Shown: positions 5,469 through 61,184 of the stretch, in pieces
Position numbering within the stretch: the first letter of the stretch is position 1
How the letters are laid out: each line of letters opens with the position of its first letter
Assembly (NCBI GenBank): GCA_965216035.1
Contig: CBDCFM010000018.1
Span: forward strand, 256,134-320,133
From: Terriglobia bacterium
GTDB lineage: Bacteria > Acidobacteriota > Terriglobia > 20CM-2-55-15
DNA: 64,000 bases
Reading direction: 5' to 3'
Notes under the pieces: model-generated
Told to the model about the DNA's origin: nothing
Database searches by the model: none
Seen by the model: the letters and a program-made list of their open reading frames with translations, nothing else
Position numbers and translations under genes: made by a program

Positions 5469-6026
5469 AAGTCCTCCAGATTTCTAGTAATAGCTGGCCG
5501 ACATCCAGCCGCCACATCCATTGTAAACAAATGGAACGGGATATCTACCCGACAACCATCATCGACGCCGACAGCGGCCGCAACTACACGATTGTGACGG
5601 GCCGAGACGACAACTATATATGACGGCGGGAGACTTTATGCGGTGCCGACACCCGCCCCCTAACCTTCATTGCGACAGGACACTGGTTTTGACGCTCCTC
5701 CTCATCTAAGCGGGCTACGCGCTATAATTGGGGGTCTGCCTGCTGAAATGTGCTTTGGGTCACATATGCTTCCTGGGATCGGTGGCGCGAAACCCGTTCC
5801 GGGACTTCAACAGGACCGGCTTTTCGTGGGCCTGGACTATAAAACCGGCTGCTGGAGGTCGACCCGATTCCGACGACTCCTCGAGCGATCGTTGGACGGA
5901 GACTGGGCGGGACGAACCTGGAAACCGTTTCTCATGGGGACGGCTGCGACGATTGCGACGACTGCCACGACTGCATCAACGGGCGAAGCCACAGGGCAAG
6001 GTCACAGACGACACGGGACTTGGAAT

Positions 6027-13770: not shown

Positions 13771-14742
13771 CTACTCCCTGGTACTCAAGATTTCCCGAAC
13801 GTCTTCGGCCACCTCGCGCGCGGCATCCGTGTGGTCGGAGGAGACGCCGTTGCTCTTGTAGCGGATTGTTTCGCAAGTCTCCATCACGTTGGCTACTCTT
13901 TGAGTGAGGATCGGGTTCGAGCCCAGACTCTCCATCTGTTCGCGCATCTCCTCAGCCGTCAATCCCATTGTGGGCGTCTCCAGGTAATACCCGAGGTATT
14001 CCTTCAAGTTCTGGTAGGAACGGTCCAAAAAACCCGAACACGTCTCCGGATCGGTGAAGTCCGAAGGAACGGCACTGATCCACCCCTCGCGCACGGCTTT
14101 CATCGCTTTGCGCCGGTCCGGACCTTTGCGAGATTTCCGTCGCTGGAAAAAGAGCGCGAGCTCCCGCCCGGACCCAACGACGAGCAGCGCACCGCAGATC
14201 CAGCCGAGAACAGGAAGCGCCCATCGGTTGGGGTCCCAACCGGTCACCGTAACGGCATCGCGGATATCGTTGGCCATCGCTGACAATGTGCTGCGGATTC
14301 CGATGGCGGGTCCGGGTATCGTCAGGCTTTCGGCCGCCGCCTGATCCACGCTGACCGTATTATTTTCTGTGCGGAAGTAAAACAGGGTGAACTGTGGAAT
14401 GTCCATCCGGGTCAGCTGCGATTCGAAATTGGCCAGCGTCAGGTCTACGAACAACCGCTGGCCCGTGTCATTGACGGTCAGATTCGTCTGGACGTCCATG
14501 ACCTCGAACGGGTCCATGTTCACGGTCTCCTGGTTCAGGTTGTCGAGAACGAATTCGTAATCGGAGGAGTAGTCGACGATGATCAAATAGTGGAACTGGT
14601 CGCCAGGCCAGACGGCTGTGCGATCCAAATGAACAGTGAACCGCATGCCCGGCGCGTCAGGAACGCCATCGGTCGACACTGCCTGAGCCCAGACATACGG
14701 ACTCACGAACATCAGCGCTATGCATAGCAAAGTCGCCTTCAT
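13771..14742 (-). CDS. hypothetical membrane protein of the MoxR/VWA (Bat-like) operon
   Basis: Start moved to MKATLLCIALMF (signal peptide), which gives a 4-nt overlap with the upstream DUF58 gene. Internal TM segment (VLGWICGALLVVG) followed by a basic cytosolic stretch. Position corresponds to BatD-like genes but no domain is recognised. Confidence 0.5.
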   Translation of the reverse strand: MKATLLCIALMFVSPYVWAQAVSTDGVPDAPGMRFTVHLDRTAVWPGDQFHYLIIVDYSSDYEFVLDNLNQETVNMDPFEVMDVQTNLTVNDTGQRLFVDLTLANFESQLTRMDIPQFTLFYFRTENNTVSVDQAAAESLTIPGPAIGIRSTLSAMANDIRDAVTVTGWDPNRWALPVLGWICGALLVVGSGRELALFFQRRKSRKGPDRRKAMKAVREGWISAVPSDFTDPETCSGFLDRSYQNLKEYLGYYLETPTMGLTAEEMREQMESLGSNPILTQRVANVMETCETIRYKSNGVSSDHTDAAREVAEDVREILSTRE

Positions 14743-15632
14743 ATTTTCTTCCGCCTTTGAAATAGCATCATCAGGGAATCGGTAAACGCTTCGCCCACGT
14801 TCAAAAACAGGCACTCCATACCCAACGAATAAAACAGATCCTGGAGTTCCGTTTTTCGTTTCTCCACCAAAGTGTCGAATGCCCGCCTCTGACGCGAGGA
14901 AAGGCTGAGCAATATTTCCTGACGGCCCTCGGCCGAGCGAAAGCGGAGCAGCCCTTTCCCTGTCGGAAGGTTACTTTCCAGTTGATCGGTGAACACGATG
15001 GGAACCACGTCATGTTTTTGCGCCAGCACCTTGAGATCGGGCAGCTCGGCCAGCTGGCGCGCATTCGGGTCGGTGATGAAATCCGAGAGCAGAAAAACAA
15101 CGGACATGCCCCGAAGCTGACTGCGTAGAAAACGCAACGCGAGCTCCCAATTGGTTCCCGAGTGCTTCGGTTTCAGGTTGTGAAGCCGATCAATCGCTCG
15201 CCACACATGGGCGCGGCCCTTGCGGGGGGGCTCGTAGGCTTCGACCTGATCACTGAACGCCAGCCAGCCGAAGTTGCAGCTGTCGCTCACAGCAGAAAAG
15301 CCGAGGGTGGCGCCCACCTGCATGACACGTAAATTCTTGGAATGTTTCGCCGTCGAGAAACGCATTGAGCCGGATATATCCGCCACCAGAAATACCGAGA
15401 CCTCCCGTTCCTCAAAATGGCGCTTGATGAAGACTTCCTGCATTCGCGCCGTAACGTTCCAATCGATACGCCGAAAATCTTCCCCAATCTGGTACTTGCG
15501 GTGGGCCTCGAATTCGTAGCCAGAGCCCTTGAGTGGGCTGCGGCTCTGTCCGAATCGCAGACTGCGAATGCGCCGCGCCACACTGATTTCTACGTATCGA
15601 AGCTCTTCGACTAATTCCGGCGCCAAAGCCAT
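14739..15632 (-). CDS. DUF58 domain-containing protein (MoxR-associated)
   Basis: Motifs LKGSGYEFEAHRKYQIGEDFRRIDWNVTAR and VFLVADISGSM are typical of DUF58. Directly downstream of the MoxR ATPase gene. Confidence 0.8.
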   Translation of the reverse strand: MALAPELVEELRYVEISVARRIRSLRFGQSRSPLKGSGYEFEAHRKYQIGEDFRRIDWNVTARMQEVFIKRHFEEREVSVFLVADISGSMRFSTAKHSKNLRVMQVGATLGFSAVSDSCNFGWLAFSDQVEAYEPPRKGRAHVWRAIDRLHNLKPKHSGTNWELALRFLRSQLRGMSVVFLLSDFITDPNARQLAELPDLKVLAQKHDVVPIVFTDQLESNLPTGKGLLRFRSAEGRQEILLSLSSRQRRAFDTLVEKRKTELQDLFYSLGMECLFLNVGEAFTDSLMMLFQRRKKI

Positions 15633-15641
15633 GGGACCTTC

Positions 15642-16661
15642 TTAAGGAATCGGAGTATGTTTCAACACTTCGGTGACGATCTCGTCAGACTCCACGTTTT
15701 CGACTTCCGCCCGGATCGTGCGCACAATTCTGTGATGCATCACATCCGGCGCAATGTACTTCACATCCGAAGGGAGAACGTAATCGCGCCGGCGGAAAAA
15801 AGCTACGGCACGGCACATCGCCAGCAGGTGATTGTACGAGCGTGGCGATACGCCGTGCATGACCATCTCATCCACAATCGGCAGTGTGTTCGAGCCGTTA
15901 CTGCGCGTGTTCTGGCCGATGGCAACAATATACCGACGAATCTTGTCGTCCACGTACACCTGGCCGACCATTTGCCGGATCGCGAGGACTGCTCTGGGGT
16001 GGGTCACCGATTCCAGGCGCGTTTTTTCGAGGCTGGCTGAGAGCATCTCGTATTCGCTTTCCGGGGACGGGTAGTGAACGCGAACCATCATGCAGAAACG
16101 ATCCAGCTGGGCTTCCGGCAGTGAGAACACGCCTTCCTGCTCCACGGGGTTCTGAGTCGCCAGGACCCAGAATGGATCATCCAGAGCGTAGGTGTTTTCG
16201 CCGATCGTCACCTGCCGCTCCTGCATGGCTTCGAGCAAGGCGCTCTGCGTCTTCTGTGGGGCGCGGTTGATTTCATCCGCCAGAATAATGTTCGCGAAGA
16301 TAGGACCTGTTTCAGTGCGGAATTCGCCGGACTTGCTATCGAAGATTTTCGTTCCAAGAATATCCGCGGGCAGCATGTCCGGCGTGAACTGTATGCGCTG
16401 GAACTTGGCGTCGATCGTACTCGCTATGGCAGAGACAAGCAGTGTTTTGGCGAGTCCGGGCACGCCTTCCAACAAAATGTGACCTGAGCCTGCTTTCTCG
16501 TCCTCCCCCTTCTTGAACGAATAAGAAATGCGCCCGAACAGCCCGATCAGAATGCGCCGGATCAGATCGTCCTGGCCGATAATGACCTTGCGGATCTGCT
16601 CCTCGATCTGGGCGATGACCTCCCATGCCTGCTCTCTTGATTCGACTTGTTCGTTCAACAA
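15642..16661 (-). CDS. MoxR family AAA+ ATPase
   Basis: Walker A in ILLEGVPGLAKT. Walker B/sensor in IILADEINRAPQKTQSALLEAMQERQVTI. 339 aa. Confidence 0.9.
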   Translation of the reverse strand: MLNEQVESREQAWEVIAQIEEQIRKVIIGQDDLIRRILIGLFGRISYSFKKGEDEKAGSGHILLEGVPGLAKTLLVSAIASTIDAKFQRIQFTPDMLPADILGTKIFDSKSGEFRTETGPIFANIILADEINRAPQKTQSALLEAMQERQVTIGENTYALDDPFWVLATQNPVEQEGVFSLPEAQLDRFCMMVRVHYPSPESEYEMLSASLEKTRLESVTHPRAVLAIRQMVGQVYVDDKIRRYIVAIGQNTRSNGSNTLPIVDEMVMHGVSPRSYNHLLAMCRAVAFFRRRDYVLPSDVKYIAPDVMHHRIVRTIRAEVENVESDEIVTEVLKHTPIP

Positions 16662-16689
16662 TCCAGTCCTCAGGGGCTCCCCAGGTCGA

Positions 16690-17709
16690 CTATAAGAAGA
16701 CCCCGATCAACAGGCATCCCAGGGCAGCCATCAGAAAATACATATAGAGGTCCCGGCGGACAGCGCTCGATTCAAAGCCAGATACGGGCCGGCTGTGCAC
16801 CAGGATTTCCTCCATGACTTGATTCAACTGTTCTTCCAACTCACCGCGCACAAACCTTCCGCCCGTCTTGTCGGAGACCTCTCGCATGGTTCTGGCCTGC
16901 GCTTGACTGATCAGCCGGACCCCGTCGTATCGCTGGTAATACCTTACCGGCCGCCCGTTCAAGCCTCCAACCATTTCCATCGGTACGTTCGAGCCATTCG
17001 CCGTACCCAGGCCGATGGAATAGATTTTGATCCCAGATCGAACGACCTCGGCCAGCGGCTCCTCGATCTCGTCCGCCGTATCGTCGCCATCTGAAACGAG
17101 GACGAATACCACGCGGCGGTTCTGGGCGCCTTCCGGATCGATCGTTCGTTCCGTTGCAACCAGCTGCATCGCGTTTGTCAGCACGGCTCCCACATTGGTA
17201 CCCGGCTGCGGCACATTCTGGTGATTGAGATAATCGAAATACAGCAAGATGCTTTGCGGATCGCGGGTCATGTAGGACAACACGACGCTCGTCCAATTGA
17301 ATGAGATCAACCCGTAACGATCCTCGGGCTGCTTCAAAAAGATGAACCTCTCAATAATCCGCTCAGCGCGGCCCAGCCGGCTGGGATCCATGTCGCGTCC
17401 GTACATGGAGGGAGATGTGTCCAACAGGAACACCAAATCAGTGGGTGTCGGAATGGCACGCAGCTCTCGGACAATCGCGCTGGGCTCGGCCAGGGCCAGG
17501 ACCATCAGCGTGAGAGCGCCTGCAAACAGCAGACCGCGGAACCACCCTCGGCCTGACCATGAGATTCTCGAGACTGCCGCGAGGTTACCGATATTTCCGA
17601 AGCGGACCCGCATCCGCCGCAAGTGCCACACACCGATTCCCCAGAGCAGGGCCACAAAGGGAATCAGCAGCAACAGCCAGAAGAGTTCTTGTCTTGCAAA
17701 TTCCATCAA
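16690..17709 (-). CDS. VWA domain-containing protein (BatA-like), membrane anchored
   Basis: N-terminal TM helices (LFWLLLLIPFVALLW). MIDAS DTSPSM. VSDGDDT and IKIYSIGLG motifs. Confidence 0.8.
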   Translation of the reverse strand: MMEFARQELFWLLLLIPFVALLWGIGVWHLRRMRVRFGNIGNLAAVSRISWSGRGWFRGLLFAGALTLMVLALAEPSAIVRELRAIPTPTDLVFLLDTSPSMYGRDMDPSRLGRAERIIERFIFLKQPEDRYGLISFNWTSVVLSYMTRDPQSILLYFDYLNHQNVPQPGTNVGAVLTNAMQLVATERTIDPEGAQNRRVVFVLVSDGDDTADEIEEPLAEVVRSGIKIYSIGLGTANGSNVPMEMVGGLNGRPVRYYQRYDGVRLISQAQARTMREVSDKTGGRFVRGELEEQLNQVMEEILVHSRPVSGFESSAVRRDLYMYFLMAALGCLLIGVFL

Positions 17710-37831: not shown

Positions 37832-37941
37832 TGCGTTCCGAAGTGCCCTGAGCCAGGCCATCGCCTGAGGTGCCTGCTGTGTTTGAGTCGATGCTCCAGA
37901 AGGTGCGAGAAGTTCGCTGGGGCAGACGCCTCTCCCCGGTT

Positions 37942-38412
37942 TCAAGCGATACTCGACAGCTGCCAGAAACCTGCCTCGACGAGGAAGGGCCGCACGCGCG
38001 GGCGCCATACCTGACTCACGAAATTGAGCTGGCTCGCCGAGCAACGCTCGCCGGGAAGATTCTGCTCCGGGGTCAGAGCCGCATCGTATTCCCGTTCGAG
38101 CCGCGGCAATGCGCTTTCGGGCTCTGCCCACAATGTGGATACGAGGGGATCGAACAAATAGGGATCGGCCATTGGTGGAACCAGCGCGGGGGGGACCGCG
38201 TCATCGCTGTCAGCGTTGACGGATTTCGCAGCATCGAGTGCGCGTGCAAACGCAGCGGCCCGGGCGCGGAGACTTGCCACCACTGATGCGAGACGCACAT
38301 CGCGCGCTGGCATCAGTTCGGCCGCATCGATCCGTGCGGGCGCGGTCTGGGCGCAAAAGGCATCATACGATTGCCAGCGCGGCAACGACGCCTGGCCGTA
38401 GGCGGTATTCAC
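37942..38412 (-). CDS. hypothetical protein (weak)
   Basis: 156 aa GTG-start ORF in a low-coding 1.3 kb region. Ala/Arg-rich, no motif recognised. A 35-aa ORF (MTDDTATMERVRELVDEYRVECLWFLRPDYYPGSSET) lies just upstream on the same strand. Confidence 0.2.
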   Translation of the reverse strand: MNTAYGQASLPRWQSYDAFCAQTAPARIDAAELMPARDVRLASVVASLRARAAAFARALDAAKSVNADSDDAVPPALVPPMADPYLFDPLVSTLWAEPESALPRLEREYDAALTPEQNLPGERCSASQLNFVSQVWRPRVRPFLVEAGFWQLSSIA

Positions 38413-39116
38413 TGACGAGAAATAACACCAGTGGTTCCAGCGTTACCGAGATAACGGAGTAACGCAGGAGATCGACGCGGTTGATGCCGCCGCGTCTCAG
38501 AAGATTCTCAATTTTGCACTCTTCGGTCACGTTTCAGATGACCCGGGGTAGTAATCCGGGCGGAGAAACCAGAGGCATTCCACGCGATACTCGTCGACGA
38601 GTTCGCGAACCCTCTCCATAGTTGCCGTGTCGTCAGTCATGAGTATGGAGGCTTACGGTCAGTGTCCCACAATCAATGGGCGTAGCGAACGGCAATACCC
38701 TTGATGCTTCAATCTGGAGGACAGTTTCAGGTGGTTGGCGCGCCGACAGGATCAGCCCAACACCCAGACGGCGCTGGCTCGCGACGATGCGACGCCGGAT
38801 GGGTTGAGCATCGAAATGCGATGCAGCATAAAACTGAACCCCACGGCACAGTCCATTCTACCGTGCGACGGGCTACCTCCCCTTCACTGCGAAGACCGCT
38901 GATTTTACTCATCGGCCCAAGATGACGATGCCCTGAAGATCCTGGAATCTGCCGGTTTACGAGTCATTTGTGTTGCAAAGCCCCCCCCTGAAGCCGTAAC
39001 GTAGCGCAAGAATCTAGTTCTTTCGGGTTATTGCGGTATTCCGTGAAAAGACCGGGTGAGTACCGGACATACCGTCAGAGATCGGGCTCGAGCCGGATGC
39101 ACCGGGACAATCGACG

Positions 39117-40823
39117 ATGAGCCATATATTCGTCAGCTATAAGAAGGAGGACCTGGACCATGCTGCGCTGCTGGCGCGGGCTCTCGAGGCGCACGGCTGG
39201 AAGGTCTGGTGGGATCGTTCGATCGCGGCTGGAAAGCGATTCGACGATGTCATCGAGGAGGCGATTGATGCTGCCAGTTGTGTCATCGTTTTGTGGACCT
39301 CCCGATCTGTTCGCAGCGACTGGGTCCGCAACGAGGCACAGGAGGGTGCGAACCGCGGAATCCTCGTTCCGGTCCTGATCGAAGACGTCAAGATTCCCCT
39401 CGCATTCCGCCGCATCCAGGCCGCGGACCTGATCGGCTGGAGGGGCGATTCGAACCTGGAAGCGTTCCAGCGACTGTGCCAGGACATCGAGGCAGTGATC
39501 GGGGCGCCGGTCGCAGACGAGGCTCGGGCGGAACTTCCGGGAACGGCTGACAAGCCTGAGGCCAGAACATCGGAACCCGCCCCGACTGCTCCCGATGTTC
39601 GACCGGCCAGTGTAGGCGGCCCCCTAGGGCCAGCAGACGCGTCTCCCCTCCCCGGTGGGCCGGATCCTTCCGAGGTATCGGTGCCGCGACCGTTGCCGGC
39701 CCCGCCTCCGCCCCGAGCAGCCGAAGGGGGCGTAGAGCCTCGCCGAATTTTTAGAGTCGCCGTGGGCCGGAGTCAGATTGCGATCGCGGCTTCGGCTTTG
39801 CTGCTACTTGTGCTGGTGGCCGGTCTCGCCCCGCGAGGGCCGAACGTTTCCGTGGAGTCCAGACCCGAGAGTGCGGTGGAACGGCTACCCCAGATCCCAC
39901 CGGTGCGTGATGATCTTGTGGAAGACGAACTCGATGCCCTCGGCGAGGCAACGTTGCCAGTTCGAACAGCGGCACTTGAACCGCCCCCTGACCCCGTTGA
40001 TCGTCCAACCCGACTCGAGGAAGGTGCGCCTTCTCCGGAGACAGCCCCGCCGGACTCACCGGCCCCGTCCGAACCCGCTCCTCCGATTGTCCAACCTCCC
40101 CCCGCTCCCGCCGACTCAGCGGAAGTCGCAACCGCCGGGCCCATCGCCGTAGGCGCGAGAGAAGCCCAGCAGTATGTTTCACAGTCGGTCCGTCCCGTTT
40201 ATCCTGAAGCGGCTCAGGAGGCTGGCATCGACGGCAATGTGGTGCTTCGCGTCTGGATTTCCAGTGACGGGGACGTCCGGGATGTTGTCCGGATTACCGG
40301 ACCTGACCTGCTCACAGGCGCTGCGATCGATGCAGTCAGGCAATGGCGCTATGCTCCGTATAGGCAGTACGGTATGCCAGTCGACATTGTGACGACGGTT
40401 ACTGTCGGATTTACACTGACGCCGCCGGCATCGCCGAGCCGGTCCACTGAGAATGCGGCTGAATCGACCCGCTCGGCGGCTGCCCCTACAACGGACGACT
40501 CGCCGCCAGCTCCCGAACCCCAAACCAGTACCCGCACGAGGGCCTTTCCTCCTTGCGCCAGTCCGAGGCAGGTCACGCTTGACGCCGGCGCGGTCACCTC
40601 GTTTGTAGTTGGAGACGATACGTTCGGGTTATACCTTGGCAGTGTCCGGCCCAACCTCGTCGGTGGGGGGGGGGAATGGAGGCCACATTATCGTGGTTGC
40701 GGACCGGAGAACCCTGGTGGCGTTCCGGCGGTGGCGAGATCGACCCGGCCGAGTTGTCCTCCCGCCTGTCTGAAGCGTCTGGACCTCTTGGACCGGAGAG
40801 CTATATCCACATCGACGGTCTGA
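39117..40823 (+). CDS. TIR domain - transmembrane - TonB C-terminal domain fusion protein (annotated in the uninterrupted frame; likely continues to 40930 through a G10 frameshift)
   Basis: Residues 1-130 MSHIFVSYKKEDLDHAALLARALEAHGWKVWWDRSIAAGKRFDDVIEEAIDAASCVIVLWTSRSVRSDWVRNEAQEG fit the TIR (TIR_2) profile (FxSY..ED.....L...L...G..V..D...I..G......I..AI..S...IV..S..S..S.W...E). A Pro/Ala-rich spacer is followed by a single TM helix (IAIAASALLLLVLVAGLA) and a second Pro-rich spacer. Then VRPVYPEAAQEAGIDGNVVLRVWISSDGDVRDVVRITGPDLLTGAAIDAVRQWRYAPYRQYGMPVDIVTTVTVGF fits the TonB_C fold (P.YP..A...G..G.V.......G.V....V..S.G...LD.AA..AV..WR..P.....G.PV). Confidence 0.75.
   Translation: MSHIFVSYKKEDLDHAALLARALEAHGWKVWWDRSIAAGKRFDDVIEEAIDAASCVIVLWTSRSVRSDWVRNEAQEGANRGILVPVLIEDVKIPLAFRRIQAADLIGWRGDSNLEAFQRLCQDIEAVIGAPVADEARAELPGTADKPEARTSEPAPTAPDVRPASVGGPLGPADASPLPGGPDPSEVSVPRPLPAPPPPRAAEGGVEPRRIFRVAVGRSQIAIAASALLLLVLVAGLAPRGPNVSVESRPESAVERLPQIPPVRDDLVEDELDALGEATLPVRTAALEPPPDPVDRPTRLEEGAPSPETAPPDSPAPSEPAPPIVQPPPAPADSAEVATAGPIAVGAREAQQYVSQSVRPVYPEAAQEAGIDGNVVLRVWISSDGDVRDVVRITGPDLLTGAAIDAVRQWRYAPYRQYGMPVDIVTTVTVGFTLTPPASPSRSTENAAESTRSAAAPTTDDSPPAPEPQTSTRTRAFPPCASPRQVTLDAGAVTSFVVGDDTFGLYLGSVRPNLVGGGGEWRPHYRGCGPENPGGVPAVARSTRPSCPPACLKRLDLLDRRAISTSTV
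40665..40674 (+). repeat. G10 homopolymer tract inside the 3' end of the TIR-TonB_C gene
   Basis: Ten consecutive G. The more protein-like downstream reading frame (40676-40930) is +2 relative to the gene frame. A tract of G11 or G8 would fuse the two. Confidence 0.8.
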
Positions 40824-41075
40824 CCGAAGGCACACGGGAGCGTACACTCCTCGGAGGCGATCGCTGGGTCGAATTGCGGTTCCTCGACATGCGGGGACGA
40901 CCCGCTCAGTTCGCAATCTGCGGGCAGTAAGGAGAAACGTCGGGATTTCCTGACACGATAGGCCGCTGCCGACACCCCAACCCTTGAATAGATAATCGCG
41001 AACAACAGGAATCGGCGTCCGCCTGACAAGTCCATGCTCGATGCTTGCCCGCGTACTGGGCCACAGTGCAAACAG

Positions 41076-42662: not shown

Positions 42663-43860
42663 CTACCCGCAGGCAGACGCCGGAGGGTCACGCCCCCAAT
42701 CTCTAGCGAGCTTGTACGGTAAGTTAATATCCCTCGTTTCAGGATCCGAAGTCCCGGCGCCATTAGCCAATCGCACCGTGACCGATCGGATGTCACTGCG
42801 AGTCCCATTGACGTTCACCGGTTGTGTGTATGAGAAAGTGCTGCCGCCGGTCTCTATCGAGCCCGTGCTCGAAAACCACGCCCCGAACGCGGAACCCACC
42901 GGCAGCGTAAACGAAGCGGTTCCGATGTTGGTCCCTTCGAATAAGAAAATTGCCTGGTCCACCCGCAGCGATGATGCATAGCCGGTAGTCACAATGTTGA
43001 AACCATTCGCGGTCGCCACAATATCCACGCTGTCAATCACGGGCGGCCCGATGATTTCTATCGTGCGCACCACCTGTTCGCCGTTTAACGTGGCGGTGAG
43101 TACGATGGCGCCGGCGATCGTCCCGACGTTGATCTCAGGCAGTGCCTGTGCGGCATCTTCACCTGCATTTGTGCTGAAAGATGCCGTCCGGCACGCGCAG
43201 GGGAGAAACGAACACTCGGGTCATCACTAACGAGAGCCTGCTGGGACCTTCTGCCCGGAAATACCAGCGGATCACAGCCGCCGTCTCCGAGAGTTTCAGG
43301 AACTCGGTGCAGCGCCCGTTGATGGTCAAGGTGAGCAACGGCGTCTGGGCGTTGGTGGGCAAGACGATGGGCCAACCTGAAACTTGCCGACCCTTGTCTG
43401 AACGTTCGGTTTGGTTGACAAACTCAACGTCCCCGATCAATAAGAGTCGCAGCACAAGGGGTGAGCCATGAATGACTATTGCACTTGCGAACTTCGACGG
43501 ATTGACCGGGTGTTTCTGAGCGGGAGCCTCGTATACTGCTCCATCTGCCACAAGACCATCTGCTGTGACGAGTCTGCTGTCGATGTTCAAGTAGGACGCC
43601 ATGCGGCCGAGGTCGCCGACGAAGAACATTTCGCGTGTTGGCGGCACTGGGACAGGGTTGCGGATCTTGCTGTTTCCCACGCGAGAGTGGGCGAATAAGA
43701 CCACTCGATATGCGTCGTTTGGTGAGGCCTGCGTTGGCGTAGGAGGGCCGTTCGCACTCCAGCTCTTGGGTAAGGGACTCGCAGGACTGGTGAGGGCTCG
43801 AAGACGAGAGGCATCGAACGACAGCACATCTGCAGCTTTCCAATTCGTCTCGGACGGCAT
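42663..43860 (-). pseudogene. frame-broken hypothetical secreted beta-rich protein (two overlapping minus-strand ORFs in different frames)
   Basis: ORFs 43159-43860 (233 aa) and 42663-43073 (136 aa, frame open upstream to beyond 43160) are on the same strand in different frames. The downstream part is Gly/Thr/Ser/Asn-rich and beta-strand-like (GFNIVTTGYASSLRVDQAIFLFEGTNIGTASFTLPVGSAF). No domain recognised. Could be one gene with a frameshift. Confidence 0.25.
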
Positions 43861-45695: not shown

Positions 45696-46784
45696 CTACG
45701 GGGTTCTTCTCCACGCCAACTGGGCATCCATGCATTCGCCGACAACGGTCAGGTAGCGGTCGACGGCATTCCTGTTGACATAAGGATGAGGCGCGTCCGT
45801 TCCGCGGAGCCTGAATGCGCGGGCCTTCTCCGCTTCCTGATCGTAATCGGAACGGACCGAGAGAAAAACGTCCACGTCGGCCCTCGCTGCAATGTCACGC
45901 AGACGACTGGTCGAGAACCTATACGTTCTCAGGGCTTCCTCGTCACTTGAAAAATATACGACGCCTTGCTCCACAGAGTCCCAATCCCGGCCCCCAATCA
46001 GCAGGCCGACATGCCGCCGAGTGCCTTCTCTGAGGGGAACCAGAGTCGAAAGCGTGCCGGGACTGTTACCGGGCGTTACATAGAGTGTCAGCGTCGTACC
46101 CCCGAGCGTCAGCGTCTGGCCGTCCGCCACCACGAGATCCCTTCTGGGTTTGAGCCGCTCTGGAACCTCTGGCGTTGCCTCGATAACATTCCAGTCCGCT
46201 TCGGACAGCATGATCCGTGAATTGTAGCGGTCCTGAAAAAGTTTGGCCGCGCCGTAATGCCGCACATCGGGTGTGTGGATAATGACGTATTTGACGTTCG
46301 CCGGATCGAGACCCATTTATTCGAGTCCTTCGACAACGGCTTCGGCGGCGTAGTCCCTTCCCGAATTGAGCAGAATGATGCCATCGGACGTCGTCACCGC
46401 CCAGACATGGAAGACGGTGCCGACGTTGAACAGGTTGTCGAAGACCTGCACGGGCTCGACATACCATTCAGAGCGGTCCGGGACCCGTGGGTTCGCTCTG
46501 TTAGCCGGTCGGGCCGCTGGCGTTGGCTCCTGCACGGTCGGTTCCCGCTCGGTACAGAGGAGTTCGAACGTGGGTGTCAAATCGTAGAGCCCGGGTTCGG
46601 ACGCTGCGGCCCGCGCTGCGGCCACATGGGCCTCGGCTCTGACGGCTTGCGCGTTGATTTCAATTGCAGTCCAGCCGGCCAACAGAGTCGTGCCGCAGAA
46701 TAGCCATAGCACATAGCGCCCCATAGCTCGTTTCCCTCGCCGGTTCGCCAGTCTTTTCGCGGAATAGTCGAGTGTAGATTCCAT
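45696..46784 (-). pseudogene. subclass-B3-like MBL-fold protein gene interrupted by an in-frame TAA, with a degenerate His motif
   Basis: ORFs 46317-46784 (signal peptide plus ...FHVWAVTTSDGIILLNSGRDYAAEAVVEGLE) and 45696-46316 (MGLDPANVKYVIIHTPDVRHYGAAKL...) are in the same frame, separated only by TAA (46317-46319) with ATG immediately after (TAAATG). Together they align to the B3 beta-lactamase architecture. HTPDVRH replaces the HxHxDH zinc motif. Confidence 0.6.
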
Positions 46785-47216: not shown

Positions 47217-49634
47217 ATGAAATTACTTCGACTTGGATTGATCTGTATGTTCTTAACACCGTCAACCTTCGGCCAGTTGACTGCCCGAAATCCGGTCGAC
47301 GAACTGAAGGCCCATCTGGTTCTGGCCCTAGAGGAAGCACAGATCCCTCTCACATCCGATCAAGAGCAACAGTTGGCACTACTCATTGAAGAGCAACGTC
47401 AAGCTGCGGAGAACCTGTTCGGCGTGACGTGGGATTTCAGTCAGGGGCCGCCCCAGGGTGAGCAGAGGGACCAGGCCCTGGCCGGCATCCGCTGGATGTA
47501 TGACGAGTTGAATAATGGGCTTCCCGTTTACCTGACCGAGGTGCAGAGAGTCGCATGGGAGAGTTACCAGAGCGATCAGAACGTGGACTTTTATATAGGG
47601 GAGGGTTCTGCGGACGACGGTACCCAGATTGGAAGAATTCAACAGATTCGCGTGACAAACAACCCTTTCAATGTCGAAACCGGCCAGGCGAGTGGAGCGG
47701 GGCTGCGTGAAATGGGCACGAAAACAGAAGTGATCGAACGAGGCGGTGTCGGAGCCTTCCACGGCAGCCTTGCATCGACATTCCAAGACGAGTCGCTGAA
47801 TGCCCGCAATCCTTTCGCCCGCAATAAGCCACCCTACTATGAACGGACTATCGACGGAAATATCAGCGGCCCCATCATTGGAGACCGCCTCTCTCTAAAC
47901 TTCACGTTCAGCGACAATAAACAGGAGAACGTCGGCACTGTTAAGGCGGAAACACCAACTGGACCATTTTCTCTGGGCGTGACCCGGCCCGTGGTGAACC
48001 GGTCTTACGAGACCCGGGGCATACTCCGGATCGCCGACGCTCACTCGCTACACATGAGTTTCCAATACGCCACCGAAGATCGTAAGAATGAAAACGTCGG
48101 TGATTTCGCATTGCCCGAACGCGCCTCACGATCACAAACACAGGACTACATGGTCGATCTTCGCGAAATCTGGACCCTGTCCGAGCGAACCGTCCATGAC
48201 ATCCGATTTATATGGCGACAAGATCATAGCGAGACCAATCCCTTCAGTAATGCCCAAGCGATCATTGTCAAGGACGCGTTCACGGGAGGCGGGGCGCAGA
48301 ATGAGCGCCGGGTGGATGGAAATGATTACGAATTGTCCAATCTGATTTACTTTGCCGGGGATAAACTGACCGTTCGGAGTGGATTTCAGATGCTGCACCG
48401 GAGTGAACGCTCAATCTCGGAAGACAACTTCTACGGCGAATTCACGTTTTCCGACCTAAACAGTTATCGCGCTGGAACACCGCTGCACTACAGGGAGACG
48501 TGTTGCGATCCTTTGTTCGAATTGAGCCGCACACAGATCAGCCTTTTTTCTCAGAACGATTTCAGACTGTCAAACACATTCACGCTGATGCTGGGCGTAC
48601 GCTACCAGGGACAAACCAACATCAGCGATCGGGGTAATGTGGATCCACGGATCGGCTTCGCATACGCGATCGGGAATGAGACTGTCATCCGAGGCGGCTT
48701 CGGTGTGTTTTCCCAGTGGGTCAATTTCAATACGATTGCGAATACGCGTCTCGATGGGCAGCGGGTATACGAAATCCGGATCGACAATCCAGGGTGGCCG
48801 GACCCGTTCGCATCGGGCAGCATCCGGCCTCGATCCCGTCGTCAGATTGCCCCGGATATGGAAATGGCCTATTTCCCAACAGGACAAATAGGCGTGGAAC
48901 GTAGTTTTTCCAACAATCTTTTTATAACCCTGTCTTACGAGTACCTTTGGGCTTTCAAGCCAGTCCGACCACGGGACGTCAATGCGCCGTTACCAGAGAC
49001 GGGCATCAGGCCCAATCCCAACGAAGGCCAGGTTCTTCAATTCCAGAGCAGTGGCCGGTCAAAGTATGATCGTTGGAGGGCCTCACTGAGGCAGCGGTTC
49101 GGCATCTTCGTAGTCAATGCAGACTACAACTACGTACGCGGGGTCGGTGATCAGGCAGATCGGAGGGGCTTCAGAGTGTTTTCGCCTGTCGACAGCTATG
49201 ACCTTAATAAGGATTGGGGTAATACACCAAATCCGCGCCACATCTTCAGCGCAGGCGTTAATGCCAGGTTGCCATTGGATGTCTACTTGACGACAGGCAT
49301 CGAAGCACGGAGCGGTGGTTTTTACACCATCAGGACCGGGAAGGACGACAACGGGGATGGAGTGAGCAATGACCGGCCCCCCGGCGTTGTCAAAAATAGC
49401 GAGGTCGGACCGGGCTATTTCGACGTCGGCTTCAACTTCTCAAAAGCATTTGAGTTGAACTCCGGTACTGGAGCCGCCGGGCCTCAAATGAACGTCTTCG
49501 CAAATTTGAACAATGCTTTCAACATGCAACATCCAGGATTGCCCAGCGGGGTCGTGACTTCTCCGTTCTTCATGCGGTCCTTCAATGCGACCTCACCGCG
49601 CACAATCGAATTTGGAATGGAATTTCAGTTTTAG
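47217..49634 (+). CDS. TonB-dependent receptor-like outer-membrane protein with a helical N-terminal extension (paralog 2)
   Basis: Signal peptide MKLLRLGLICMFLTPSTFGQ. Colinear with 6027-8474 (QLTARNPVDELK...LTSDQEQQLALLIEEQRQAAENLFGVTWDFSQGPPQGEQRDQALAGIRWMYDEL identical or nearly so, plug motif LNARNPFA, C-terminus RTIEFGMEFQF). Confidence 0.75.
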   Translation: MKLLRLGLICMFLTPSTFGQLTARNPVDELKAHLVLALEEAQIPLTSDQEQQLALLIEEQRQAAENLFGVTWDFSQGPPQGEQRDQALAGIRWMYDELNNGLPVYLTEVQRVAWESYQSDQNVDFYIGEGSADDGTQIGRIQQIRVTNNPFNVETGQASGAGLREMGTKTEVIERGGVGAFHGSLASTFQDESLNARNPFARNKPPYYERTIDGNISGPIIGDRLSLNFTFSDNKQENVGTVKAETPTGPFSLGVTRPVVNRSYETRGILRIADAHSLHMSFQYATEDRKNENVGDFALPERASRSQTQDYMVDLREIWTLSERTVHDIRFIWRQDHSETNPFSNAQAIIVKDAFTGGGAQNERRVDGNDYELSNLIYFAGDKLTVRSGFQMLHRSERSISEDNFYGEFTFSDLNSYRAGTPLHYRETCCDPLFELSRTQISLFSQNDFRLSNTFTLMLGVRYQGQTNISDRGNVDPRIGFAYAIGNETVIRGGFGVFSQWVNFNTIANTRLDGQRVYEIRIDNPGWPDPFASGSIRPRSRRQIAPDMEMAYFPTGQIGVERSFSNNLFITLSYEYLWAFKPVRPRDVNAPLPETGIRPNPNEGQVLQFQSSGRSKYDRWRASLRQRFGIFVVNADYNYVRGVGDQADRRGFRVFSPVDSYDLNKDWGNTPNPRHIFSAGVNARLPLDVYLTTGIEARSGGFYTIRTGKDDNGDGVSNDRPPGVVKNSEVGPGYFDVGFNFSKAFELNSGTGAAGPQMNVFANLNNAFNMQHPGLPSGVVTSPFFMRSFNATSPRTIEFGMEFQF

Positions 49635-58148: not shown

Positions 58149-61100
58149 TCAGAACCTTACTTTGAGAGACGGGCGAATCGTTCTCATCGGATTGGCACTC
58201 ACCGGCCAGCCGAACTGCGTGCTGTTCAGAGACGTATTCCAGTCGGTAAAGGTCACATGGTTGAGAACGTTCGTCACATCGACACGGAAATCCAGCAATA
58301 GTCCGTCGCTCGTGCGGAACGTCCGTCCCAGAGATGCATCCAATGTGAATTGAGTCGGACCGGTGAGGGAGTTCCTGCCGGCATTGCCCCACTCGCCCGG
58401 TGGCGGAAGGGAGAACGCAGCGGAATTCAGCCGGGCTTCCCCCGTATCTGTGAACAACGGCTCACCCGTGCGGTCGGGGCGCAGACTTCCTGTCATGCCG
58501 GTTCCCTGAGCGGGAGTGGCAAGCCCGGGAGTCATCGGTGATCCGCTGGCTACGATCCATTCCGTGGTCAGTGTCCACTCGCGCAGAAGCGTCCCCAGCC
58601 AGCCAGTCGACTCGTCCCCGAGGCCGGCGAGCAGGCCGGTGGAATAGAAGGTCTGTGCGCGCATCTGGTGCCGTCGGTCGAAGTTCGACAGGGCACGCTC
58701 GGCCGCTCGGTCCTGCCAGTTCTGGGCGACATGGATGCCTCCGAGACCGGCGTCGTCGATTGCTTTGGACCAGGTGTACTGAATGTTCGTTCCCCACCCG
58801 TTCCGCTGTCGCCGCAGGAGTGCGATAGTGCCCGCATGCTGATGAGAGCTTCCGTCCGAGGCCAGGTAGACATAGCCGGACGGACAAGAGGTGCAGGCAC
58901 CTACCTGTTCACGGGGGAACGTCTGGGGCAAGATGCGCCGTGGCAGATTCGCTCCCTGCACGCCTGCATACGTGGCCGTGAGCTGGAACGCTGCAGGCAG
59001 GTCCTGCTGGAGGGACAGTTGCCAGTTCCGCGTCCGTCCCACTCGGAATTCCGGATCGACGGCAAATGTGTTGGGGATAGTCGAAGCTGCGCCGAAACCG
59101 TTCGCCAGTGTCAGGGGTGTCAACGGACCGTTCTCCATGCTCAGGCTGGTCGACAGCGGGGATTGCTGCGCCATCGCTCCGGCAATCGAATGGTAGACGC
59201 CGGCACCACGGTAGATTCCGAATCCTGCCCGAACCACCAGGGATGCCCCTGCGATCGGACGCCACGCGATACCGATGCGGGGCTGCACGTGCGTTCTGTC
59301 GGGCCGGACCAGAGAGACAGAAAAGGACTGGCTGGTCAAGGAGCCCTCGGGCCGACTGCCAAGGACCGGAGCCACAGCAGCGAATCCCGGAGCGATGTCG
59401 AGGTTTACAAGACGGCCGTACTTCTCGGTCACAGGGGATTCGTAGTCCCACCGTACTCCGATGTTGATCGTGAGCCCGGGCGTCACCCTCCAGTCATCCA
59501 TGACATAGACGTCGTAGGCCGACTGCCGAAAATACTTGTCTGGATTGCCAAAAGCAATGGAACTGGTGGTCGGAATGCCGAGCAGAAAGTCCGCGAAGTC
59601 AATGCCGCTCGCCGCGCCGGTGAAGGTGAACGTGCCCCGCGCGTTCTCCTGGGAGAGCACGTTGATCTGCTCCCTGTTCATGCCAGCCCCGAGAGTCAAA
59701 GTGTGGGCGTTTCGGGTCCACGTGCTGCTGTAGGAAAAAGCCCCTGATTGTGTCCGGTCATAGGCGGCCGGACCGTCCGACAGCCCGGCGATCCCGTCTG
59801 AAAAATCGAGGCGGGGTGGCCCCCAGTCGCGGGGTTCCTGCCCGTTGCCGCTGATTCCCGCATCACCGGATACATTGACGCGATGGGCAAACTGGGGCGT
59901 CGTCCGGGTCGATCGCCGGGTGAACGTGTACTGCGCGAACGCTGAGAAGGAGGGTGTGAACACCCGGGACCAGGAGAAACTCGAACTCAGTGTCGATGAG
60001 CGCAGTCGATCGACAAAGGAGAAGAGGTTCTGATTGTCGGCGCGGGAGCTCTGGAAGCCGAAGCTGCCGGAAAACCGATTCCCGCCGATCTCGCCACCCG
60101 TCTGAAACTGAAGGTTGTCCCGATGGGACACGCCAGGTGTCTGGGCTTGGTAGTTGTAGCCGGTGTCGACGCCTGGGTCTGGCAGTGGATAGAAATTGAG
60201 CAAGTAGGCGGCCGGAAAACTAAGCCGGTTCGGCGGTATAACGTTGCCCGGAAACGGCAAGCCCGTGTCGGGATCGATCAGGACTTCGGATCGTTCTGAG
60301 AAGTTGCCGGACCGCTCGGCCGGAGTGGGCACACGGGCCGCTTGAAGGCCGACATCCCGATTCTGCCCGCGACCATAGATCAGAGTGAAGGCAGGTCCTT
60401 GACGATCGGAGAACGGAATACCCAGCGGGCCGGATACGCTGACCAATACATCGGCGCGGTTGTGAGCCGGTTGAGGGATATTCTGCCCTGTAACAGAAAA
60501 GGGTCGGGCATCCAGTGCGGATCCGTTCGCCGCGATGTCGATATCTGCCGTGTAGAGCGAGAGTCCCCGGCTGCGGTTGTTTCCGAACTCTCTGCCCGAT
60601 CCGTCGTTGACACTGCCGTTGATGAGGAGGACTTCTGAAGCCGGATCATCGGTCTCGCTTGCGAACAGAGGATTCTGGAGAAATGTCGGGTCGACCCGGC
60701 CGTCCCGACGAGATCGGGGGACAGCGTCGAAGCCGGATATTCCTGGTGTCAGTCCATCGATAGACAGGGCCTGCAGTTCCCAAGTGGCCGCCCCGCTGTC
60801 GGGAGCGACTTTTACGTCCCGTTCCAGCTGGACGAAACCCGGCATCTCGAGGCGGACGGTCCATATGCCATCGTCCAGCCCCGGGCAGGAATAGACGCCT
60901 TCCGAGTCGGTGATCGCGCGAAACTCCGCGTGTCCACGCGCAACCCGAATCACGACCCCCGGAACCGGCACAGTACCGGCATACACGTACCCGCGATGTT
61001 CTGAGGCCGAATAGGCGGGGAGTTCAGTCGCGAGGAACAGACCGAGAACGAAGACGAGCCAGGTTTGGTGGAGCCTCACGGATGCTTTCCGGCATGACAT
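58149..61100 (-). CDS. TonB-dependent receptor with N-terminal carboxypeptidase-regulatory-like domain
   Basis: Start at MSCRKASVRLHQTWLVFVLGLFLATELPAYS (signal peptide; the ORF track start at 61169 is in-frame). CarboxypepD_reg block GTVPVPGVVIRVARGHAEFRAITDSEGVYSCPGLDDGIWTVRLEMPGF. About 900-aa barrel. C-terminus ...RPSLKVRF. Confidence 0.85.
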   Translation of the reverse strand: MSCRKASVRLHQTWLVFVLGLFLATELPAYSASEHRGYVYAGTVPVPGVVIRVARGHAEFRAITDSEGVYSCPGLDDGIWTVRLEMPGFVQLERDVKVAPDSGAATWELQALSIDGLTPGISGFDAVPRSRRDGRVDPTFLQNPLFASETDDPASEVLLINGSVNDGSGREFGNNRSRGLSLYTADIDIAANGSALDARPFSVTGQNIPQPAHNRADVLVSVSGPLGIPFSDRQGPAFTLIYGRGQNRDVGLQAARVPTPAERSGNFSERSEVLIDPDTGLPFPGNVIPPNRLSFPAAYLLNFYPLPDPGVDTGYNYQAQTPGVSHRDNLQFQTGGEIGGNRFSGSFGFQSSRADNQNLFSFVDRLRSSTLSSSFSWSRVFTPSFSAFAQYTFTRRSTRTTPQFAHRVNVSGDAGISGNGQEPRDWGPPRLDFSDGIAGLSDGPAAYDRTQSGAFSYSSTWTRNAHTLTLGAGMNREQINVLSQENARGTFTFTGAASGIDFADFLLGIPTTSSIAFGNPDKYFRQSAYDVYVMDDWRVTPGLTINIGVRWDYESPVTEKYGRLVNLDIAPGFAAVAPVLGSRPEGSLTSQSFSVSLVRPDRTHVQPRIGIAWRPIAGASLVVRAGFGIYRGAGVYHSIAGAMAQQSPLSTSLSMENGPLTPLTLANGFGAASTIPNTFAVDPEFRVGRTRNWQLSLQQDLPAAFQLTATYAGVQGANLPRRILPQTFPREQVGACTSCPSGYVYLASDGSSHQHAGTIALLRRQRNGWGTNIQYTWSKAIDDAGLGGIHVAQNWQDRAAERALSNFDRRHQMRAQTFYSTGLLAGLGDESTGWLGTLLREWTLTTEWIVASGSPMTPGLATPAQGTGMTGSLRPDRTGEPLFTDTGEARLNSAAFSLPPPGEWGNAGRNSLTGPTQFTLDASLGRTFRTSDGLLLDFRVDVTNVLNHVTFTDWNTSLNSTQFGWPVSANPMRTIRPSLKVRF

Positions 61101-61184
61101 GGCCGAACCCTGGCAATCGCGGACGTAGTGCGTCACCGGAATCGGTTCTTCCGCTGGATCTGTCGTCAACGGCGGCTCCGACGG

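What the first reader, a model, noticed from the sequence alone, without database searches (positions are those of the whole stretch)
40665..40674. G10 homopolymer sets the reading frame of the 3' end of the TIR-TonB gene
In the current frame the protein ends in low-complexity, implausible sequence (EWRPHYRGCGPENPGGVPAVARSTRPSCPPACLKRL...). The +2 frame that begins exactly at the tract (40676-40930) reads more protein-like (ESYIHIDGLTEGTRERTLLGGDRWVELRFLDMRGRPAQFAICGQ). A tract length of G11 (or G8) would join the two into a 605 aa product. This is either a homopolymer sequencing error or a slipped-strand phase-variable tract controlling the C-terminal module of a putative defence/signalling protein. 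A C8 tract also sits in the upstream region of the gene (38981-38988).
Basis: seen in the sequence. Interest (0 to 1): 0.55.

Follow-up and report, generated by a model that had tools for sequence, protein, structure and literature searches.

The report
Length-variable poly-G tract truncating TIR-TonB gene
A run of ten G's really does knock the last domain of a membrane-anchored TIR/TonB-like protein out of frame, and the run is 8, 9 or 10 G's in nine near-identical contigs from other samples, so it is a slippage-prone on/off site or, less likely, a homopolymer sequencing error.

Summary
G10 sits at 40665-40674 and is the longest homopolymer in the window. It shifts ORF 39117-40823 (568 aa: TIR_2, one TM helix, Pro-rich spacer, TonB_C) out of the frame that encodes its true C-terminus (40676-40930). 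Two orthologues (603 aa, 95% identical; 613 aa, about 45%) read straight through into that frame. The restored region is a conserved domain of about 130 aa bracketed by two cysteines. It is predicted with confidence to be beta-rich (pLDDT 90), and the Gly tract forms a loop in it. The same TonB_C plus C-domain cassette also occurs behind a Ser/Thr kinase head.

Across nine near-identical contigs the tract is G8 three times (in frame, one at 31x), G9 three times (two are short-read-style contigs) and G10 three times. Almost nothing else differs. This needs at least 4 length changes against about 8 SNPs in 7.7 kb. A distant orthologue encodes the loop as GGA GGC GGG, with no tract.

Best reading (0.45): a real slipped-strand hypermutable tract, with the window carrying an OFF (truncated) allele. 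Rivals: a low-coverage long-read miscall (0.27), or a plain inactivating frameshift (0.23). Reads are needed to decide. This is a new member of a known kind, and of moderate interest.

The parts
40665..40674 (+). G10 homopolymer. It encodes the Gly loop (GGT GGG GGG GG.) of the C-terminal domain and is two bases longer than the in-frame G8 allele.
39117..40823 (+). ORF as it stands (568 aa): the TIR-TM-TonB_C protein with a 52-aa out-of-frame tail after the tract.
39126..39479 (+). TIR_2 domain (aa 4-121), predicted cytoplasmic. Glu73 in the W-x3-E motif is invariant in the alignment.
39777..39833 (+). Single predicted transmembrane helix (aa 221-239, IAIAASALLLLVLVAGLAP). Four Arg in the 15 residues before it indicate an N-in topology.
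39855..40181 (+). Pro-rich spacer (aa 247-355, 22% Pro), like the periplasm-spanning spacer of TonB.
40191..40418 (+). TonB_C domain (aa 359-434).
40536..40664 (+). First third of the conserved Cys-bracketed C-terminal domain (PPCxAPRQ motif and strands 1-3). It is still in frame with the ORF.
40676..40930 (+). Displaced last two thirds of the C-terminal domain (84 codons plus stop, frame +2). Contains the PWW motif, strands 4-8 and the second invariant Cys.
38981..38988 (+). C8 tract in the 5' intergenic region. Invariant in the window's lineage and C7 in one 4x contig (L002). No role shown.

Best explanation
The poly-G tract is a real slipped-strand-mispairing hotspot inside the gene for a membrane-anchored receptor-like protein. 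That protein has a cytoplasmic TIR domain, one TM helix, a Pro-rich spacer, a periplasmic TonB_C domain and a previously undescribed Cys-bracketed beta-rich domain of about 130 aa. The tract encodes a Gly loop between strands 3 and 4 of that last domain. With G8 the gene is ON (603 aa). Gain of one or two G's (G9, G10) shifts the frame, removes strands 4-8 and the second cysteine, and gives 551- or 568-aa proteins. These keep TIR, TM and TonB_C but cannot fold the terminal domain. The window carries such an OFF allele. Because length changes recur on nearly identical backgrounds, the site behaves like a reversible contingency (phase-variation) switch for the extracytoplasmic sensor end of the protein. 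Shown here: the frame relationships, conservation of the displaced domain, its predicted fold, and length polymorphism among contigs. Inferred: that all the length calls are true, that switching is reversible, the topology, and any phenotype.
For: 1. Orthologues read through. P0001, P0125 and P0127 (603 aa) and P0002 (613 aa) align over the whole frame +2 segment.
2. The tract is G8 in L002 (4x), L006 (4x) and L007 (31x, 5.9 Mb contig). It is G9 in L004 (8x) and in two short contigs, L008 (SPAdes-style NODE, cov 1.25) and L009 (548-bp scaffold). It is G10 in the window, L001 (2.4x) and L005 (14x).
3. The five ingroup contigs differ over 7.7 kb by only 6 SNPs and 3 indel sites. Haplotypes give an outgroup with G8. 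One near-identical clade (40892-A) holds G8, G9, G9 and G10. L004 has G9, and the window plus L001 have G10. This needs at least 4 independent length changes.
4. Five other homopolymers of 6-8 nt in the same 7.7 kb never vary within the lineage.
5. The displaced segment shows no decay. It has no stop or further indel in any of the six out-of-frame alleles. It has 2 codon changes in 87 against L007, compared with 44 in 516 upstream.
6. The displaced segment is part of one domain: five sequences share an invariant Cys pair and PPC/PWW motifs, and AlphaFold2 gives pLDDT 89.8 and pTM 0.85 with the Gly run in a loop.
7. The tract is lineage-specific. The 45% orthologue uses GGA GGC GGG.
Against: All the long-read contigs are below 40x, and four of them are at or below 8x. 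Sereika et al. 2022 (PMC9262707) state that R10.4 homopolymers of 10 or more remain problematic and that bins below 40x need polishing. The contig names look like metaMDBG output (my own knowledge), and the nanoMDBG paper reports more frameshift errors for ONT soil data (PMC13087279). Low-coverage errors are visible in these very contigs: a +T splits the HEAT gene in the 2.4x contig, and C8 becomes C7 in a 4x contig. If the true ingroup length were G9, as in both short-read-style contigs, every long-read call would be within +/-1 of it, and a single mutation would explain everything. No within-sample heterogeneity, reversibility or phenotype could be examined. Classical contingency tracts sit near the 5' end or in promoters, whereas this one spares 85% of the protein. 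G8 is short for a high-rate switch.
Confidence: 0.45

Rival explanations
1. Assembly or base-calling artefact. The genome behind the window really has an in-frame tract (G8, or G11 giving five Gly), and G10 is a homopolymer-length miscall carried into a low-to-moderate-coverage long-read consensus.
For: G10 lies at the length where R10.4 consensus calling becomes unreliable, and coverage below 40x needs polishing (PMC9262707). The related contigs have 2.4-14x coverage. Other low-coverage indel errors are seen: +T in L001 and C7 in L002. The highest-coverage contig (31x) is in frame. The Gly loop varies from 2 to 4 Gly among homologues, so G11 (5 Gly) would probably be tolerated. The downstream frame is perfectly intact.
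Against: G10 is found on two different haplotypes in three contigs, one of them at 14x. Reaching G10 from G8 needs a +2 error in a consensus. Two short-read-style contigs from two further samples carry an out-of-frame G9, so out-of-frame alleles exist independently of long-read chemistry. C8 and four other 6-7 nt tracts are stable in all five ingroup contigs.
Confidence: 0.27
2. A real but ordinary inactivating frameshift. One slippage event (G8 to G9) became fixed in this lineage, and the gene's C-terminal domain is simply lost (an early pseudogene or truncated variant). The spread of 8, 9 and 10 among long-read contigs is +/-1 noise around G9. There is no reversible switching and no regulatory role.
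For: Both short-read-style contigs and one 8x long-read contig say G9. Every ingroup long-read call lies within +/-1 of 9. The window holds another disrupted gene, an in-frame TAA in a metallo-beta-lactamase-like ORF at 46317-46319. A decayed 3' remnant of this same gene exists elsewhere (L090), which shows the family can be lost.
Against: It requires +1 miscalls in three contigs, including one at 14x, and a -1 miscall that happens to restore the frame in L006. There is no secondary decay downstream of the tract, although the lineage is too young for that to carry much weight.
Confidence: 0.23
3. Recoding. The DNA really is G10 or G9, but RNA-polymerase slippage on the G run, or ribosomal frameshifting, restores the frame in a fraction of products. 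The cell would then make both truncated and full-length protein.
For: Runs of 9 or more identical bases are known sites of transcriptional slippage (established knowledge, mostly for A/T runs). The downstream frame is intact.
Against: Slippage is far less efficient on G/C runs (my own knowledge). In-frame G8 alleles exist, so no recoding is needed in the ancestral state. No stimulatory structure or family was detected; Rfam gave no match in the window.
Confidence: 0.03
4. Two separate genes. The 84-codon ORF starting at ATG 40676 is an independent small gene and the 568-aa ORF is complete.
For: An ATG follows the tract directly, and gene callers did call the 84-aa ORF on a short contig (P0126).
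Against: The Met is an internal residue of a single conserved domain in all in-frame homologues. The predicted fold spans the tract. The fragment lacks a signal peptide and the first Cys. The 52-aa tail of the 568-aa ORF has no conservation.
Confidence: 0.02

Closest known systems
Homopolymeric-tract (simple sequence repeat) phase variation / contingency loci, e.g. poly-G tracts in Campylobacter jejuni and Neisseria genes, and the reversible 7C frameshift in Mycobacterium tuberculosis glpK (named from my own knowledge)
   Same: There is a poly-G run inside an ORF. Changes of +/-1 or 2 bases toggle the reading frame. Several tract lengths occur on otherwise near-identical backgrounds.
   Different: The tract lies at codon 513 of 603, so only the last domain is lost rather than the whole protein. 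The host appears to be an uncultured soil acidobacterium (Vicinamibacterales-like) rather than a host-adapted pathogen. Reversibility, within-population mixtures and phenotype are all unshown. The ON length is only G8.
Homopolymer indel errors in low-coverage long-read metagenome assemblies
   Same: The tract is the longest homopolymer in the window. The contigs have 2-31x coverage. It produces a frameshifted gene call, as described in PMC9262707 and PMC13087279.
   Different: Out-of-frame G9 is also present in two short-read-style contigs from other samples. G10 recurs on two haplotypes, including a 14x contig.
TonB (energy transducer of TonB-dependent outer-membrane transport)
   Same: It has one N-proximal TM helix, a Pro-rich periplasmic spacer and a TonB_C domain above the Pfam and TIGRFAM cut-offs.
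   Different: A 220-aa cytoplasmic extension with a TIR domain precedes the TM helix. The TM helix has no His, so the canonical S-x3-H-x6-L-x3-S motif is absent. An extra 130-aa domain follows TonB_C. No exbB/exbD genes lie next to it.
Bacterial TIR-domain defence effectors (Thoeris ThsB, TIR-SAVED, TIR-pAgo partners)
   Same: The TIR_2 domain scores 85 bits. It matches PADLOC TIR models at domain level. A Glu is invariant in the W-x3-E motif.
   Different: There is no system-level match. The Thoeris type III ThcB4 model scores 35 bits against a cut-off of 220. No partner genes are conserved across loci. The protein is membrane-anchored with periplasmic domains.
Receptor-type Ser/Thr kinase P0130 (Pkinase-TM-TonB_C-same C-domain), from the metagenome protein library
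   Same: It has the identical extracytoplasmic cassette: TonB_C plus the Cys-bracketed domain, about 40% identical.
   Different: Its cytoplasmic head is a kinase instead of TIR. Its Gly loop is AEGG, with no homopolymer.

Membership tests
SSR/homopolymer phase-variable (contingency) locus | A homopolymer or short repeat of mutable length (about 7-8 or more) within an ORF or promoter | tested here: met
   G10 lies inside the ORF at 40665-40674.
SSR/homopolymer phase-variable (contingency) locus | Length changes switch the product between full-length and truncated forms | tested here: met
   G8 gives 603 aa, G9 551 aa, G10 568 aa and G11 604 aa. The 603-aa form matches the orthologues.
SSR/homopolymer phase-variable (contingency) locus | Tract length is polymorphic among closely related genomes, out of step with the phylogeny | tested here: inconclusive
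   G8, G9 and G10 each occur three times, requiring at least 4 changes on near-identical haplotypes. Sequencing error cannot be excluded for the 2-14x long-read contigs.
SSR/homopolymer phase-variable (contingency) locus | Reversible, high-frequency switching within a clonal population, with a phenotype | not testable with these tools
   This needs reads, single-colony lineages or expression data.
TIR domain proteins (Pfam TIR_2, PF13676) | Domain match above the curated cut-off | tested here: met
   85 bits against a cut-off of 28, over aa 4-121.
TIR domain proteins (Pfam TIR_2, PF13676) | A conserved glutamate at the position used for NAD+ cleavage | tested here: met
   E73 in SDWVRNEA is invariant in all seven aligned sequences. 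Calling it the catalytic residue rests on general knowledge of TIR NADases. Activity was not tested.
Canonical TonB | TonB_C domain plus a Pro-rich spacer | tested here: met
   TonB_C scores 60 bits against a cut-off of 24.6, and TIGR01352 scores 40 bits against 27. The spacer is 22% Pro.
Canonical TonB | N-terminal signal-anchor helix with the conserved His (SHLS motif) that couples to ExbB/ExbD | tested here: not met
   The TM helix IAIAASALLLLVLVAGLAP has no His and sits after a 220-aa cytoplasmic TIR region.
Canonical TonB | Genomic association with exbB/exbD | tested here: not met
   The neighbours are PEP mutase, a 156-aa hypothetical protein and a HEAT-repeat protein. No ExbB/ExbD genes appear in any of the loci.
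Known anti-phage defence systems with TIR (Thoeris etc.) | Full-length match to a system component, with partner genes present | tested here: not met
   PADLOC hits cover only the TIR region. NCBIfam ThcB4 scores 35 bits against a cut-off of 220. No gene neighbour is conserved between the window, L002/L007 and L003.

The most novel reading that the evidence does not exclude
A soil acidobacterium carries a Toll-like-receptor-style transmembrane protein. It has a cytoplasmic TIR (NADase) head and a periplasmic TonB_C domain plus a new disulfide-bracketed beta domain as sensor. The sensor end is switched on and off by slippage of an intragenic poly-G tract. This would be bet-hedging between a responsive and a blind (or deregulated) state of an envelope-surveillance or defence protein. 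It would extend contingency-locus biology to free-living soil bacteria and to TIR signalling.
Probability: 0.2. Interest if true: 0.65.

Novelty: new member of a known kind. Interest (0 to 1): 0.4.

Why it matters
If the length polymorphism is real, this is a rare documented candidate for homopolymer-driven phase variation in an uncultured soil bacterium. It would also act on an unusual target: the extracytoplasmic sensor end of a membrane-anchored TIR protein. The switch would leave the TIR, TM and TonB_C parts intact, so the two states could differ in regulation rather than in presence or absence. Whatever the tract turns out to be, two things are established here. The annotated 568-aa product is not the native protein, which is 603 aa. 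And there is a conserved, structurally unmatched C-terminal domain that is shared between TIR-headed and kinase-headed TonB_C receptors. If the tract is an artefact, the case is a useful warning: G8-G10 tracts in long-read contigs below 40x produce false truncated proteins that end up in public protein clusters. Cluster 1 here holds five length variants of one gene.

Tried and rejected
- **GC3 frame plot.** GC3 by frame across 39117-40947 did not discriminate the frames downstream of the tract.
- **Family searches on the 84-aa ORF.** Pfam gave no match. Rfam gave no match anywhere in the window.
- **Promoter and terminator scan.** Nothing was found near the C8 tract or the gene ends, so no role for C8 can be proposed.
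- **GTDB genome scan with the 603-aa protein.** No relative was found.
- **JGI metagenome scans.** Neither an exact pattern allowing any tract length nor the C-domain profile found anything. No extra short-read observations could be added.
- **Profile word-index search with the C-domain alignment.** It returned only the decayed remnant P0133.
- **Fold searches of the C-domain model.** PDB gave a best E of 0.13 with TM below 0.3. BFVD gave a best E of 3e-3 with TM 0.47 to unnamed phage proteins. No functional lead came from either.
- **Literature.** No paper on TIR-TonB fusions turned up. Nothing was found for the sample and assembly accessions. Nothing specific was found on homopolymer phase variation in soil metagenomes.
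- **Gly codon usage.** GGG makes up 21% of Gly codons, so a GGG-GGG pair has a chance probability of about 4-5%. This is too weak to argue that selection maintains the tract.
- **Separate-gene reading of the 84-aa ORF.** Rejected.
Full report
**1. The observation**

The window (58.4% G+C) has a run of ten G's at 40665-40674. It is the longest homopolymer in the 64 kb. The next longest are T8 at 7217 and C8 at 38981. A G10 or C10 is not rare by composition alone. Dinucleotide-preserving shuffles give 0.21 per window, and 14 of 100 shuffles have at least one.

The tract lies inside ORF 39117-40823 (568 aa). An 84-codon ORF (40676-40930) starts two bases after the tract in frame +2. Editing the tract in silico gives these products:

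| Tract | Product |
|---|---|
| G8 | 603 aa |
| G9 | 551 aa |
| G10 | 568 aa |
| G11 | 604 aa |
| G12 | 552 aa |

**2. What the gene is**

- Pfam finds TIR_2 at residues 4-121 (85 bits) and TonB_C at 359-434 (60 bits).
- There is one strong hydrophobic helix at 221-239. Four Arg precede it, which indicates an N-in topology. A spacer with 22% Pro follows it.
- The predicted layout is therefore cytoplasmic TIR, one TM helix, a periplasm-spanning spacer, and periplasmic TonB_C.
- It is not a canonical TonB. The helix has no His, 220 cytoplasmic residues precede it, and no exbB/exbD genes lie nearby.
- It does not match any catalogued defence system beyond the TIR domain itself.
- It has no conserved gene neighbours.
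- The AmtB gene of the window is 78-81% identical to Vicinamibacterales MAGs. The host is therefore probably a soil acidobacterium, but this is a single-gene inference.

**3. The frame break is real relative to orthologues**

A search with the G11-restored product found P0001 (603 aa, 95% identical, full coverage) and P0002 (613 aa, about 45% identical in the alignment, full coverage). Both continue past the tract position into the sequence encoded by window frame +2, as far as the equivalent of 40930. P0001 reads ...RPNLVGGGGMEVTLSWLRTGEPWW..., and P0002 reads ...SPNLANGGGMSATLYWVRTEVPWW.... The 52-aa tail of the G10 frame is therefore not the native C-terminus.

An exhaustive search with the 84-aa segment found the same module at the C-terminus of two further proteins:
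- P0130 (698 aa) has a Ser/Thr kinase head, a TM helix and TonB_C before the module.
- P0132 is a fragment with TonB_C before the module.

The five module sequences share an invariant Cys near each end, a PPCxAPRQ motif and a PWW motif. AlphaFold2 on this small alignment gives a confident beta-rich fold of eight strands and one helix (pLDDT 89.8, pTM 0.85). The Gly run falls in the loop between strands 28-39 and 47-56. No PDB structure matches, and only weak matches to unnamed phage proteins were found.

A frameshift at the tract therefore removes five of the eight strands and the second Cys of a single domain. It does not create two genes.

**4. Tract length in relatives**

The 90%-identity cluster that holds the window's protein has eight members, with lengths 603 (three), 568 (two), 551, 95 and 84 aa. 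I fetched the DNA of all of them. The site is otherwise identical in every one, and only the run length differs:

| Tract | Contigs |
|---|---|
| G8 | L002 (contig labelled 4x), L006 (4x), L007 (30.96x, 5.87 Mb contig) |
| G9 | L004 (8x), L008 (NODE_..._length_562_cov_1.25), L009 (548-bp scaffold) |
| G10 | the window, L001 (2.42x), L005 (14x) |

The long contigs have names in the style of metaMDBG output, which I recognise from my own knowledge. L008 and L009 look like short-read assemblies.

Over the shared 7.7 kb, the five contigs of the window's lineage differ by six SNPs and three indel sites, one of which is the tract. The haplotypes give the following picture:
- The outgroup (L002, L007; 97% identical to the window) has G8.
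- L004 has the ancestral ingroup haplotype and G9.
- The window and L001 share two derived SNPs and have G10.
- A clade marked by 40892-A contains L005 (G10), L006 (G8), L008 (G9) and L009 (G9).

This needs at least four independent length changes on a tree that has only about eight point mutations.

Other evidence from the same comparison:
- Five other homopolymers of 6-8 nt in the same stretch are constant within the lineage.
- The distant orthologue encodes the loop as GGA GGC GGG, so the tract is specific to this lineage.
- Downstream of the tract, none of the six out-of-frame alleles has a stop or an indel in frame +2.
- Against L007, the window has only 2 codon changes in 87 downstream of the tract, compared with 44 in 516 upstream.

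**5. Error or biology?**

Arguments for error:
- Every long-read contig is below 40x. Sereika et al. 2022 state that R10.4 homopolymers of 10 or more remain problematic, and that bins below 40x need short-read polishing (PMC9262707).
- The nanoMDBG paper reports more frameshift errors in ONT soil assemblies (PMC13087279).
- The 2.42x contig carries a private +T that splits the neighbouring HEAT-repeat gene.
- The only indel between L002 (4x) and L007 (31x) in 7.8 kb is C7 against C8, upstream of this same gene.
- A parsimonious error model exists: true G9 in the whole ingroup, with long-read calls scattered by +/-1.

Arguments for biology:
- Two short-read-style contigs from two other samples carry out-of-frame G9.
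- G10 recurs in three contigs on two haplotypes, including one at 14x.
- G8 is secured by the 31x contig and by reading-frame conservation.

At least two lengths (G8 and G9) are therefore very probably real. My estimates are:

| Statement | Probability |
|---|---|
| The window's gene is truly out of frame (G9 or G10) | about 0.7 |
| The length in this genome is exactly G10 | about 0.5 |
| The site works as a reversible switch rather than a one-off frameshift | 0.45 |
| Pure artefact, with an in-frame truth | 0.27 |
| Fixed inactivating frameshift | 0.23 |

**6. Mechanism proposed**

Slipped-strand mispairing at the G run adds or removes G's.
- G8 is the ON state. It gives the full 603-aa receptor-like protein with an intact periplasmic TonB_C plus C-domain cassette.
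- G9 and G10 are OFF states. They give 551-aa and 568-aa proteins that keep TIR, the TM helix and TonB_C. After strand 3 of the last domain they end in 35 or 52 unrelated residues.

The same cassette is attached to a kinase head elsewhere. From this I infer that it is the sensing or partner-binding end and that TIR or kinase is the cytoplasmic output. Loss of the C-domain would then blind or deregulate the protein rather than remove it.

The frame logic, domain conservation, predicted fold and contig-level polymorphism are shown here. Topology, disulfide formation, TIR activity, reversibility and any phenotype are inferred.

**7. Comparison with known systems, and novelty**

The behaviour matches homopolymeric-tract contingency loci. 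Unusual features are the 3'-proximal position, the soil-bacterial host and the TIR/TonB_C target. Membership in that class is only partly testable here (see the membership table). The protein is not a canonical TonB and not a member of a catalogued defence system.

I rate the finding a new member of a known kind, with moderate interest. The tract question can be settled quickly with reads. The protein architecture and its unmatched C-terminal domain are the more original by-products.

Noticed in passing
window 45696-46784 (- strand); stop at 46317-46319: An in-frame TAA (GAA TAA ATG...VVEGLE*MGLDPANVKYVIIH...) splits what looks like one metallo-beta-lactamase-like gene with a signal peptide. 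The two abutting ORFs (155 aa and 206 aa) are in the same frame. It could be a nonsense mutation, a pseudogene or a substitution error.
   Followed up: partly
window 38981-38988; L002 position about 4865: The C8 tract upstream of the TIR-TonB gene is C7 in the 4x contig L002. It is the only indel between L002 and the 31x contig L007 over 7.8 kb. It is C8 in all the other contigs.
   Followed up: partly
window about 43202; gene 43159-43860 (- strand): A one-base indel (+T), shared by L005 and L006 and consistent with their phylogeny, changes the 3' end of a hypothetical gene. It is 233 aa in the window, L001 and L004, and 258 aa in L005 and L006.
   Followed up: partly
L001 position corresponding to window 41937: The 2.42x contig has a private +T (TT to TTT) that splits the HEAT-repeat gene into 286 and 138 aa. 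This is a probable low-coverage assembly error in a contig that is otherwise identical to the window.
   Followed up: yes
L090 3117-3428 (contig ctg321315_2x_l): A 3' remnant of the same gene: the last roughly 320 bp, 77% identical, with a G6 tract and several indels. It sits in an unrelated context near an IS110-family transposase and was called as a 141-aa chimeric ORF, P0133.
   Followed up: partly
L002 550-4672 and L007 1-2671, compared with window 37832-39116: The region upstream of the gene differs between lineages. L002 and L007 carry PP2C phosphatase, a T6SS VipA/VipB fusion-like gene and two hypothetical genes. The window has only a 156-aa hypothetical gene. This is a variable genomic spot.
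   Followed up: no
window 5670-8474, 47217-49634, 58149-61169: Three large outer-membrane beta-barrel proteins (OMP_b-brl_4), one with a CarboxypepD_reg domain, of the TonB-dependent-receptor-like type common in Acidobacteriota. They are possible partners for a TonB_C domain.
   Followed up: no
hits (P0006-P0100): The same TIR_2 head (50-68% identical) is fused in hundreds of metagenomic proteins to other extracytoplasmic-type domains: FGE-sulfatase (the commonest), PDZ, PASTA, OmpA and PAP2. This suggests a broad class of membrane-anchored TIR receptors.
   Followed up: no
window 13771-17709 (- strand): A MoxR-type AAA ATPase, a DUF58/VWA protein and a further VWA protein form an apparent operon. 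The 347-aa ORF at 13771-14814 overlaps the DUF58 gene by 76 nt.
   Followed up: no
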